A stretch of 44,881 bases of DNA, taken from sequence record PP920552.1; one strand, written 5' to 3'. Each line of letters begins with the position of its first letter. Positions within the stretch are counted from its first letter, which is position 1. A program made the translations under genes and the position numbers. Origin of the DNA: Escherichia phage SM_A2. Below, piece by piece: positions 8,745 through 9,654 of the stretch. The notes under the pieces are model-generated. The model saw nothing but the letters and a program-made list of their open reading frames with translations. It had not been told where the DNA came from and ran no database searches.

Positions 8745-9188
8745 ATGAATCCGGCATTACTCGCGGCTATTATCGCCGCAAATACCAAACAGCCACCGGA
8801 CCCAATACCGGATCTGGTGCTGCGCACCGACTTGCCGCCCTCGCTTTCGGTCGATCAAGGGTCGCGCTTATCGTTGGCAATTGTCGCCGAGGGTGGACGC
8901 GAGCCGTACCAGTGCGCATGGACACTTAACGGAGCGGAAGCGCCAGGGAGCACTAATTCGCCGTTGATAACCATCGGCAGCGCATCACAGGAACATGCCG
9001 GTGATTGGCAATGCGTATTGACCTCTGAGGATGGGCAGCAAGTTGAATCTGCGGTCTGTGCGGTCGATGTTGTAGCGCCAGAGCCAGAGCCAGAGCCAGA
9101 GCCAGAGCCAGAGCCAGAGCCAGAGCCAGAGCCAGAGCCAGAGCCAGAGCCAGAGCCAGAGCCAGAGCCAGAGCCGAAGGGGGAGTAA
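8745..9188 (+). CDS. Ig-like domain protein with C-terminal (PE)n repeat tail
   Basis: ATG at 8745; Ig-like signature (paired Cys, YQCAW...DWQCVL); C-terminus is 16 Pro-Glu dipeptides encoded by a hexanucleotide array. Confidence 0.5.
   Translation: MNPALLAAIIAANTKQPPDPIPDLVLRTDLPPSLSVDQGSRLSLAIVAEGGREPYQCAWTLNGAEAPGSTNSPLITIGSASQEHAGDWQCVLTSEDGQQVESAVCAVDVVAPEPEPEPEPEPEPEPEPEPEPEPEPEPEPEPEPKGE
9078..9173. repeat. hexanucleotide microsatellite (CCAGAG)x16
   Basis: Perfect tandem hexamer array; encodes (PE)n in the frame of gene 8745-9188. Confidence 0.95.
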
Positions 9189-9215
9189 CATGGCGGGATT
9201 TAACTACGCAGGCTT

Positions 9216-9281
9216 GAGCCAGAGCCAGAGCCAGAGCCAGAGCCAGAGCCAGAGCCAGAGCCAGAGCCAGAGCCAGAGCCA
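9216..9281. repeat. hexanucleotide microsatellite (GAGCCA)x11, second copy
   Basis: Second perfect hexamer array 42 nt after the first; encodes (SQ)n in the frame beginning at ATG 9190; part of a 111-bp tandem duplication (9190-9300 vs 9301 onward). Confidence 0.95.
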
Positions 9282-9300
9282 GAGCCGAAGGGGGAGTAAC

Positions 9301-9654
9301 ATGGCGGGATTTAACTACGCAGGCTTGAAGCGGAAAGTAAATCCGCTGATTAAAAAATACGGCATGACCGTTAAGGTGACGCGTCCGGGGTCTGTTGACC
9401 GCGTAGACGGCGAAGAAGTGGTTATCCCGCCAACGTCGTTTGATGTCATCGGTCTTCGCGAGGAGTACAAGCCCAGCGAGATCGACGGGACTCGTATCAT
9501 TGCCGGTGACGTTAAGTTCTTATGCCAGGCATCGGAGCAAGTGCAGGTAGGCGATCTGGTTAACCTGAATAGCACGGACTACCGTGTTATCAATCCAAAT
9601 CCACTGCAACCGGCGGGAACTACCATGCTGTTTCAATTACAGCTAAGGGGCTAA
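9301..9654 (+). CDS. head-tail joining protein (putative); alternative in-frame start at 9190
   Basis: ATG 9301 preceded by AAGGGGGAG; an identical RBS+ATG lies 111 nt upstream (9190) in the same frame, which would add MAGFNYAGL-(SQ)11-SRRGSN. Confidence 0.4.
   Translation: MAGFNYAGLKRKVNPLIKKYGMTVKVTRPGSVDRVDGEEVVIPPTSFDVIGLREEYKPSEIDGTRIIAGDVKFLCQASEQVQVGDLVNLNSTDYRVINPNPLQPAGTTMLFQLQLRG

What the first reader, a model, noticed from the sequence alone, without database searches (positions are those of the whole stretch)
9078..9325. In-frame hexanucleotide microsatellite arrays with a 111-bp tandem duplication of a gene junction
A perfect (CCAGAG)16 array encodes the (PE)16 C-terminal tail of the Ig-like domain protein. 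It is followed by the stop/RBS/ATG junction, a second (GAGCCA)11 array, and an exact repeat of the junction. The duplication is 111 bp (37 codons), so the first ATG (9190) is in frame with the second (9301) and would add an (SQ)11 linker to the downstream protein. Hexamer arrays can expand and contract by slippage without breaking frame, so this could be a length-variable linker locus in virion proteins, a recent duplication, or a repeat-collapse assembly artefact.
Basis: seen in the sequence. Interest (0 to 1): 0.6.

Follow-up and report, generated by a model that had tools for sequence, protein, structure and literature searches.

The report
Variable PE-repeat gene; duplication probably assembly artefact
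The (PE)16 hexamer array is a real, length-variable coding repeat in a small Ig-bearing gene of an E. coli Dhillonvirus, but the exact 111-bp duplicate next to it (second array, second start site, "(SQ)11 linker") is most likely an untrimmed assembler end-overlap, so the locus is ordinary.

Summary
(CCAGAG)16 lies at 9078-9173. A 111-bp unit (9105-9215) repeats perfectly at 9216-9326, giving in-frame ATGs at 9190 and 9301.

The window is a complete Dhillonvirus (HK578-like coliphage) genome, rotated to start at the terS ATG.

The first array looks real. It encodes the PE tract of a small conserved gene (phrog_11158) between adaptor Ad1 and stopper Hc1. The tract ranges from 2 to 17 dipeptides among 20 related loci. 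In this phage an Ig-like module (T5 pb10/Hoc type) sits inside the tract. One other contig shares that allele (67% aa identity).

The duplication was found nowhere else. Contigs whose Hc1 is 353/354 nt identical have one junction, and one of them carries this exact junction once.

Its length, 111, is the final k-mer that Bactopia-run SPAdes used on 2x150-bp reads. SPAdes leaves a k-length overlap on circular phage contigs. Rotating such a contig without trimming gives exactly this structure.

I put about 0.7 on an artefact and about 0.2 on a real recent duplication. Only reads or PCR can decide.

The parts
8213..8743 (+). Head-tail adaptor Ad1 gene, immediately upstream
   Evidence: phrog_477 E=4e-36; Pfam DnaT_2 E=3e-13. 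Syntenic with annotated Ad1 in relatives.
8745..9188 (+). Small structural-module ORF (147 aa): N-terminal anchor peptide MNPALLAAIIAANTKQPP, Ig-like module, (PE)16, PKGE, stop
   Evidence: ORF list. The N-terminus matches phrog_11158 (E=8e-10) and is conserved in 20 loci. Variable sites in the first 15 codons fall 3/1/10 by codon position, which indicates purifying selection.
8799..9077 (+). Ig-like (I-set/Ig_3-type) module inserted inside the Pro-Glu tract
   Evidence: Pfam Ig_3 E=2e-6 (28.6 bits, below the cutoff of 30). PHROG Hoc-like decoration E=9e-12. About 40% aa identity to Ig domains of HK97-type tail tube and T5-type Dec proteins. AF2 gives a beta-sandwich for residues 25-110. Foldseek and PDB hits to T5 pb10, Moo19 and N4 decoration proteins. 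No DNA match in the phage collection. One homologous allele found, P0001/L019, at 67% aa identity.
9078..9173 (+). Array 1: perfect (CCAGAG)16 encoding (PE)16. A coding microsatellite, judged real.
   Evidence: The homologous tract varies in length in relatives.
9174..9215 (+). Junction copy 1: end of small ORF (PKGE, TAA 9186-9188), Shine-Dalgarno-like AAGGGGGAG, ATG 9190, first 26 nt of Hc1
   Evidence: The identical junction occurs once in metagenome contig L007.
9105..9215 (+). Copy 1 of the exact 111-bp unit (last 69 nt of array 1 plus the 42-nt junction)
   Evidence: TRF period 111, 100%. Exact comparison.
9216..9326 (+). Copy 2 of the exact 111-bp unit, probably an untrimmed contig-end overlap. 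If so, the original contig began at 9216 and ended at 9215.
   Evidence: Found in none of the relatives or collections searched. 111 is the final SPAdes k reported by a Bactopia-pipeline paper for 2x150 reads. k-length overlaps on circular phage contigs are documented.
9219..9284 (+). Array 2: (CCAGAG)11, read as (SQ)11 from ATG 9190. Part of copy 2.
9301..9654 (+). Hc1 head-closure/stopper gene (117 aa), authentic start at 9301
   Evidence: phrog_161 E=7e-30. PDB 10lj_A 'Stopper protein gp12' E=6e-68 over the full length, starting at this Met. The identical 117-aa protein occurs on three independent contigs.
9190..9300 (+). Putative 37-codon N-terminal extension of Hc1 (MAGFNYAGL(SQ)11SRRGSN). 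It exists only if the duplication is real.
   Evidence: ORF 9190-9654. No gene with this 154-aa product is on record.

Best explanation
Two things of different standing are superimposed here.

(1) Real biology. Between the adaptor (Ad1) and stopper (Hc1) genes, Dhillonviruses carry a small gene. Its product is a 15-residue conserved N-terminal peptide followed by an acidic Pro-Glu tract. The tract is encoded by hexanucleotide repeats. They gain and lose units, presumably by replication slippage, without breaking frame. In this phage the tract has expanded to a perfectly pure (CCAGAG)16. An Ig-like module of the T5 pb10/Hoc type also sits inside the tract. By inference the product is an anchor-Ig-spacer decoration of the virion.

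(2) Probable artefact. The exact 111-bp repeat is most likely not in the phage DNA. This covers the second array, the second stop/RBS/ATG junction and the apparent (SQ)11 extension of Hc1. It is most likely the k-mer-length overlap (k=111) that a de Bruijn assembler such as SPAdes leaves at both ends of a circular contig. When that contig was rotated to begin at the terS ATG without trimming, the two end copies became an internal perfect tandem duplication. The join falls between 9215 and 9216. The true genome would then be 44,770 bp, with one (PE)16 array, one junction and Hc1 starting at the position now numbered 9301.
For: Shown for (1):
- The tract length differs among 20 loci (2-17 Px dipeptides). 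Examples are the close relatives bov22_1 and bov25_1D (a 30-nt difference, same 18-nt higher-order unit), L005 with (CCAGAA)7, L007 with (PE)6, and the window with 16 units.
- The relatives' arrays mix synonymous codons. The window's array is pure, which fits recent expansion.
- The ORF is under purifying selection: variable sites fall 3/1/10 by codon position.
- The Ig fold is supported. A second anchor-Ig-PE allele exists in L019.

Shown for (2):
- The two copies are 100% identical over 111 nt, including an array expected to be slippage-prone.
- The period is odd and equals 111. That is the last k of the series 31, 51, 71, 91, 111 that a Bactopia-pipeline paper reports for SPAdes on 2x150-bp reads (PMC11194217).
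- SPAdes circular phage contigs carry a start/end overlap equal to k that has to be removed by hand (PMC7372960; PMC12007190).
- Shovill/SPAdes phage assemblies produced ~79-bp repeats that Sanger sequencing showed to be spurious in most of the phages (PMC10438801).
- The window was demonstrably rotated after assembly. It starts at the first base of the terS ATG, has no terminal repeat, and its last and first 500 nt map to adjacent positions (3946-4445 and 4446-4945) in phage NHEP3.
- Contigs do break inside this array. Logan contig L006 of a relative starts within it.
- No relative has the duplication. L005, L006 and L007 have Hc1 353/354 nt identical and a single junction, and L007 has the very same junction sequence once.
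- The novel joint is absent from IMG/VR. The junction sequence, in any copy number, is absent from the IMG/VR and JGI contigs, and no phage record carries it.
- The 96-bp array is shorter than k=111, so it would be resolved at that k (inference).

Inferred: the virion location of the protein, the slippage mechanism, and the identity of the assembler.
Against: - No reads, assembly log or provenance are available, so the artefact is inferred and not shown.
- 111 could be a coincidence.
- A real duplication would be harmless. The small ORF still ends at its own stop, and the second copy restores RBS, ATG and Hc1, so viability does not argue against it.
- Repeat arrays are plausible hot spots for real template-switch duplications. 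The 2-nt GA at the boundary fits microhomology-mediated duplication as well as chance.
- Three complete, un-rotated Dhillonvirus records that I scanned show no leftover terminal overlap. This small sample therefore gives no base-rate support.
- The small protein was not among the 24 proteins detected in EE09 virion/lysate proteomics (PMC10673088). This is weak evidence, because the product is about 39 aa and acidic.
Confidence: 0.7

Rival explanations
1. The 111-bp tandem duplication is real and very recent. A template switch or illegitimate recombination occurred between the hexamer array and a GA dinucleotide 26 nt into Hc1. The phage then has two identical RBS/ATG sites. It would make both normal Hc1 (117 aa) and an N-terminally extended isoform (154 aa) carrying (SQ)11.
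For: - The sequence as given contains it.
- It is in frame (37 codons) and disrupts no gene.
- There are 2 nt of boundary microhomology.
- The left breakpoint lies in an array that demonstrably changes length in this lineage.
- Perfect identity is expected for a very young duplication.
Against: - It was found in no other genome or contig, including ones with 99.7% identical Hc1 and the same junction.
- Its length equals a standard final assembler k.
- The genome was rotated after assembly.
- The 154-aa product is not on record anywhere.
- The solved homologue, gp12 (10lj), starts at the Met corresponding to 9301.
Confidence: 0.2
2. A different mis-assembly of the low-complexity region. Possibilities are an end-to-end manual join or scaffolding of two contigs that both ended near the array, an overlap-layout mis-circularisation, or a wrong unit count in the array itself.
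For: - Contigs of relatives end inside the array.
- Short-read phage assemblies are reported to produce spurious repeats near contig ends.
- Records with gross assembly errors probably exist in this genus. PQ843332.1 is 88.6 kb, about twice the genome size.
Against: - This does not explain why the overlap is exactly 111.
- The 96-bp array is shorter than typical 150-bp reads and shorter than k=111, so its length should be determinable.
Confidence: 0.07
3. A selected contingency locus. Both arrays are functional, slippage-tuned linkers. They vary the reach of an Ig-bearing decoration and of the stopper protein's N-terminus from plaque to plaque.
For: The PE tract varies in length between relatives. 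Hexamer units preserve the reading frame.
Against: - The SQ array exists only inside the suspect duplicate.
- No relative has any repeat at the Hc1 N-terminus.
- There are no within-population data.
- Because the frame is preserved, there is no on/off switching as in classical contingency loci.
Confidence: 0.03

Closest known systems
k-mer-length start/end overlap of circular contigs from de Bruijn assemblers (SPAdes/Shovill), left untrimmed
   Same: An exact duplicate of odd length that equals a documented final k (111 for 2x150 reads). The two copies become adjacent once the contig is circularised or rotated. Phage-genome papers describe removing such overlaps and confirming spurious ~79-bp repeats by Sanger sequencing.
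   Different: Published cases usually mention 127 bp at the record termini. Here the duplicate is internal, which requires a rotation step. The rotation is shown, but the assembler is unknown.
T5 decoration protein pb10 / T4 Hoc-type Ig-like decoration proteins
   Same: The Ig module is the closest sequence match to the pb10 C-terminal domain (PDB 8zvi_a E=2e-13, 5lxk_A E=2e-11) and to PHROG 'Hoc-like head decoration'. In the pb10 alignment the Ig domain is likewise preceded by a Pro-rich stretch (PPAPPAPP).
   Different: There is no homologue of the pb10 or Hoc capsid-binding domain, only a 15-residue conserved peptide. The gene lies between the connector genes Ad1 and Hc1. The Ig domain is followed by a long PE tail. 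Virion location is untested.
Coding microsatellites / simple-sequence repeat loci that change length by slipped-strand mispairing
   Same: A perfect short tandem repeat, with length polymorphism among close relatives.
   Different: The unit is 6 nt, so the frame is always kept. The tract modulates length only and does not switch expression on and off. Within-population variation has not been shown.
Pro-Glu / Glu-Pro dipeptide-repeat spacers (trypanosome procyclin; TonB from my own knowledge)
   Same: A long (PE)n run. Pfam Trypan_PARP matches residues 111-144 on composition (E=1e-9, far below its cutoff of 100 bits). Such repeats form extended, acidic, rod-like spacers (established knowledge, not tested here).
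   Different: No homology, only shared composition.
phrog_11158, the small Dhillonvirus ORF between Ad1 and Hc1
   Same: The N-terminal 22 residues match (E=8e-10). Same position and same PE tract in 20 loci.
   Different: Typical members are 38-39 aa and overlap the Hc1 start by 14 nt. This one is 147 aa, has an Ig insert and a 16-unit tract, and has a non-overlapping KGE-stop junction that it shares with L007.

Membership tests
Untrimmed circular-contig k-mer overlap (assembly artefact) | The two copies are 100% identical | tested here: met
   111/111 identical, including a 69-nt stretch of array.
Untrimmed circular-contig k-mer overlap (assembly artefact) | Repeat period equals an odd k actually used as the final k by a common pipeline | tested here: met
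   Period 111. SPAdes in the Bactopia pipeline on 2x150 reads used k=31, 51, 71, 91, 111 (PMC11194217). That Shovill picks this series automatically is my recollection.
Untrimmed circular-contig k-mer overlap (assembly artefact) | The record is a circular or permuted genome that was re-opened at another point after assembly | tested here: met
   The window starts at the terS ATG and has no terminal repeat. Its end and start are contiguous in NHEP3.
Untrimmed circular-contig k-mer overlap (assembly artefact) | No reads span the joint between the two copies; depth is halved over the copies | not testable with these tools
   No reads are available. The phage's own proteins (Ad1, small ORF, Neck1, long Hc1) are not in the contig collection.
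Untrimmed circular-contig k-mer overlap (assembly artefact) | Absent from independent assemblies of the same or nearly identical genomes | tested here: inconclusive
   Absent from L005, L006 and L007 (Hc1 353/354 nt identical), from L019, and from all other loci and collections searched. None of these is the same phage.
Slippage-prone coding microsatellite | A perfect tandem array of a short unit inside an ORF, with unit length a multiple of 3 | tested here: met
   (CCAGAG)16 at 9078-9173, in frame as (PE)16.
Slippage-prone coding microsatellite | Length polymorphism at the homologous site among close relatives | tested here: met
   2-17 Px dipeptides in 20 loci. bov22_1 and bov25_1D differ by 30 nt. 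L005, L007 and the window have 7, 6 and 16 units next to a 99.7% identical Hc1.
Slippage-prone coding microsatellite | Length heterogeneity within one phage population | not testable with these tools
   Needs reads or amplicon sequencing.
Ig-like domain (Pfam Ig_3 / I-set) of phage decoration type | Sequence match above the curated Pfam threshold | tested here: not met
   Ig_3 scores 28.6 bits against a cutoff of 30 (E=2e-6), and I-set is weaker. The homologue P0001 does carry a precomputed PF13927 hit.
Ig-like domain (Pfam Ig_3 / I-set) of phage decoration type | Ig beta-sandwich fold | tested here: met
   AF2 model with 8 strands in residues 25-110, block pLDDT about 74-90 over that region. 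Foldseek probability 1.0 to phage decoration Ig domains and I-set domains. PDB sequence hits to T5 pb10 at E=2e-13.
Ig-like domain (Pfam Ig_3 / I-set) of phage decoration type | Displayed on the virion surface | not testable with these tools
   Inferred from gene position and from the known restriction of phage Ig-like domains to structural proteins. EE09 proteomics did not list the short homologue.
Hc1 / stopper protein (phrog_161; PDB 10lj gp12) | Full-length homology starting at the annotated Met | tested here: met
   phrog_161 E=7e-30 covering residues 4-116. 10lj_A E=6e-68 aligned to residues 1-117 of the 9301 start. The identical 117-aa protein is called on 3 contigs.

The most novel reading that the evidence does not exclude
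The duplication is genuine. This phage has just duplicated a gene junction through its own hypermutable hexamer array. It now makes two stopper-protein isoforms, one with an (SQ)11 N-terminal arm, from twin identical ribosome-binding sites. It also makes an Ig-bearing neck or head decoration whose PE spacer length drifts by slippage. That would be a snapshot of how coding microsatellites seed new linkers and gene-boundary rearrangements in virion modules.
Probability: 0.2. Interest if true: 0.45.

Novelty: new member of a known kind. Interest (0 to 1): 0.2.

Why it matters
The practical point is annotation and quality control. If the duplicate is an untrimmed k=111 overlap, the deposited genome is 111 bp too long. 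The 154-aa 'long Hc1' and the (SQ)11 linker would then be fictitious, and the same pipeline may have left equivalent duplications in sibling genomes.

The biological part that remains is modest but real. A small, unstudied Dhillonvirus gene between adaptor and stopper carries a PE tract that changes length quickly. In two lineages it hosts an Ig-like module. That marks it as a probable surface-exposed virion accessory, and it is a convenient natural example of Ig-domain shuffling into a low-complexity linker.

Tried and rejected
- Looked for the same phage, or any second copy of the duplication. The novel joint has 0 hits in IMG/VR. The lineage junction has 0 hits in JGI metagenome contigs and IMG/VR. 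No phage record carries the KGE junction. There is no E. coli prophage match.
- Exact-protein look-ups for the small ORF, the long Hc1, Ad1 and Neck1 found nothing on record.
- The search for related loci with the Ig ORF found nothing in IMG/VR or JGI.
- ZCEC10's 154-aa 'structural protein' looked like a natural long Hc1. It is only an over-extended TTG-start annotation across the small ORF in another frame. Rejected.
- I considered that the overlap start might mark the graph node where an 11-unit allele merges with the 16-unit allele. The register is off by 2 nt, so I dropped the idea (reasoning).
- A base-rate check on three complete un-rotated Dhillonvirus records found no terminal overlaps and no exact tandem duplications of period 40 or more. 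The sample is too small to inform.
- A programmed +1 frameshift fusing Ad1 to the small ORF: I saw no convincing slippery site, and the stop-start arrangement (TAACATG / TGATATG) looks like ordinary translational coupling. Not pursued.
- Literature searches for a description of this small ORF in Dhillonvirus virions found none. EE09 proteomics does not list it.

Full report
OBSERVATION

- A perfect (CCAGAG)16 lies at 9078-9173.
- It is followed by a 42-nt junction, CCGAAGGGGGAGTAACATGGCGGGATTTAACTACGCAGGCTT, with stop TAA at 9186-9188 and ATG at 9190.
- Then come GAG plus (CCAGAG)11 (9216-9284) and the identical 42-nt junction, with ATG at 9301.
- Tandem Repeats Finder reports period 111, 2.0 copies, 100% matches.
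- Base-by-base, w[p]=w[p+111] for p=9105-9217. That is 111 nt plus a 2-nt GA extension.
- The ORF list confirms that 8745-9188 ends in (PE)16PKGE. It also confirms that 9190-9654 reads MAGFNYAGL(SQ)11SRRGSN followed by the normal MAGFNYAGL... start.

None of this can be chance. The open question is whether all of it exists in the phage.

CONTEXT

The window is a complete Dhillonvirus (HK578-like E. coli siphophage) genome.
- 158 phage records match the region at 80-95% identity, and no E. coli chromosome does.
- The gene order is scaffold, major capsid (7084-8184), adaptor Ad1 (8213-8743), the small ORF (8745-9188), head-closure/stopper Hc1 (9301-9654), Neck1, tail terminator, major tail protein and tape measure.
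- Hc1 is about 88% identical over its full length to a solved 'Stopper protein gp12' (PDB 10lj). That alignment begins at the Met encoded at 9301.

THE SMALL ORF AND ITS PE TRACT (REAL, ORDINARY)

In relatives the ORF between Ad1 and Hc1 is usually 38-39 aa. It reads MNPALLAAIIAANTK, then a short Pro-Glu/Pro-X tract, then PPVQEDDNGGL, and it overlaps the Hc1 ATG by 14 nt. Three points establish it as a real, variable gene.
- It evolves as a coding sequence. Across 11 distinct N-terminal sequences, the variable sites in the first 15 codons fall 3/1/10 by codon position. It matches phrog_11158.
- The tract is length-variable across the 20 loci, from 2 to 17 Px dipeptides. The closely related bov22_1 and bov25_1D differ by 30 nt. 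L005 has a pure (CCAGAA)7. L007 has (CCAGAA)2(CCAGAG)4. The window has a pure 16-unit run.
- L005, L006 and L007 have an Hc1 gene 353/354 nt identical to the window's. The tract has therefore changed over a very short evolutionary distance, or by recombination at this point.

Replication slippage is the inferred mechanism.

THE IG-LIKE MODULE

Residues ~19-110 of the window's ORF form an Ig-like domain.
- Pfam Ig_3 gives E=2e-6, just under the curated cutoff. PHROG 'Hoc-like head decoration' gives E=9e-12.
- It is about 40% identical to Ig domains at the C-terminus of HK97-type tail tube proteins and to T5-type Dec proteins.
- A single-sequence AF2 model gives a beta-sandwich, with block pLDDT about 74-90 over residues 25-110.
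- The model hits decoration proteins of phages Moo19 and N4, T5 pb10, and I-set domains. The best solved sequence relative is the pb10 C-terminal domain (E=2e-13).
- No phage in the collection shares this segment at the DNA level.
- One Logan contig (L019; P0001, 122 aa) carries the same anchor-Ig-PE architecture at 67% aa identity, with a short PE tract and a single, typical junction.

Pro-Glu remnants flank the module on both sides, so it sits inside the linker. Virion display is inferred, not shown. EE09 virion/lysate proteomics lists Hc1- and Ad1-sized proteins but no ~39-aa product (PMC10673088).

THE 111-BP DUPLICATION (PROBABLY NOT REAL)

Five lines of evidence converge.
1. It is unique. 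No relative, contig or collection searched has a second junction or the novel joint. L007 carries this very junction sequence once.
2. The copies are perfectly identical, including a 69-nt stretch of an array that is expected to be slippage-prone.
3. The window was re-opened after assembly. It begins at the first base of the terS ATG and has no terminal repeat. Its last and first 500 nt map to adjacent coordinates in phage NHEP3.
4. SPAdes leaves an overlap equal to the k-mer size at the two ends of circular phage contigs, and it must be trimmed by hand (PMC7372960; PMC12007190). Shovill/SPAdes phage assemblies have yielded ~79-bp repeats that Sanger sequencing proved spurious in most of the phages (PMC10438801).
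5. The period, 111, is odd. It is exactly the final k of the series 31, 51, 71, 91, 111 that the Bactopia pipeline's SPAdes run used on 2x150-bp reads (PMC11194217). That Shovill selects this series automatically is my recollection.

A contig of the form X-genome-X with |X|=111, rotated without trimming, gives ...X X... This is precisely the observed structure, with the join at 9215|9216. The 96-bp array is shorter than 111, so it would be resolved at that k. Contigs of a relative do start inside this array (L006).

WHAT SPEAKS FOR A REAL DUPLICATION

- It is in frame and harmless, because the second copy restores stop, RBS, ATG and Hc1.
- The left breakpoint lies in a mutable array.
- There are 2 nt of boundary microhomology.
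- I have no reads.
- Three un-rotated relatives that I scanned showed no leftover overlaps, so I have no genus-specific base rate.

I therefore give the artefact reading about 0.7, a real recent duplication about 0.2, and other mis-assemblies or a selected two-array contingency locus the remainder.

COMPARISON WITH KNOWN THINGS

- The duplicate behaves like the documented k-mer end-overlap artefact. The testable defining features (identity, k-length, rotation) are met. The decisive one, read support, is untestable here.
- The PE tract behaves like a coding microsatellite, but it cannot switch expression because the unit is 6 nt.
- The Ig module is a member of the promiscuous phage Ig-like domains, closest to T5 pb10. 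The protein lacks a pb10/Hoc capsid-binding domain, so it 'works like' a decoration protein only by inference.

VERDICT

The distinctive half of the finding (second array, duplicated junction, SQ linker) is most likely an assembly leftover. The remaining half is an ordinary, though undescribed, variable PE tract in a small Ig-bearing structural-module gene. Interest is low (0.2). A read mapping or one PCR (290 versus 401 bp) would settle it.

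Noticed in passing
window 8799-9077; L019 5055-5330: An Ig-like module sits inside the PE linker of the small Ad1/Hc1 intergenic ORF. I found it in only one other contig (Logan SRR10023924). There it is 64.7% nt identical, while the flanking genes are 76-93% identical. Contigs with 99.7% identical Hc1 lack it, which indicates a mosaic boundary at the array/junction.
   Followed up: yes
L001 1091-1180 vs L003 1091-1150 (bov22_1 vs bov25_1D): In the bovine Hungarian Dhillonviruses the PE tract is built from an 18-nt higher-order unit (GAACCAGAGCCGGAACCA). 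It differs by 30 nt between otherwise closely related phages. This looks like an independent expansion of the same tract.
   Followed up: partly
L006 1-50 (Logan ERR7366040 contig): An independent assembly of a close relative starts inside the hexamer array. This shows that assemblers break contigs at this locus.
   Followed up: yes
window 36030-36641 (- strand; repeat 36241-36525): A 203-aa acidic/basic protein with three near-identical 30-aa repeats (KKEVVEEDDDDDAEDEKPAKSKKAPAKGKA). Period 90 bp, 3.2 copies, 97% identity, with one exact 96-nt run.
   Followed up: no
window 33016-33816 (- strand; repeat 33105-33234): A 266-aa protein with a C-terminal charged repeat (DDDDEDDKPRKSKKSKRR-like). 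Period 54 bp, 2.4 copies, 84% identity.
   Followed up: no
window 23336-23385 (in ORF 22722-24341, +): A perfect 21-bp tandem repeat (2.4 copies) encoding AAQDARD heptad-like repeats in a 539-aa ORF, presumably a tail fibre.
   Followed up: partly
It is probably a concatenated (dimer) assembly.
   Followed up: partly
L020 621-1085 (NC_073075.1 ZCEC10 gp31): Hc1 is annotated with an upstream TTG start, so the CDS (154 aa) runs across the small PE ORF in another frame. This is an annotation over-extension that hides the small gene.
   Followed up: yes
PDB 10lj chain A: A solved structure of a Dhillonvirus-type 'Stopper protein gp12' exists (E=6e-68, about 88% identical to the window's Hc1). I found no solved homologue for Ad1 or for the small PE protein.
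   Followed up: partly
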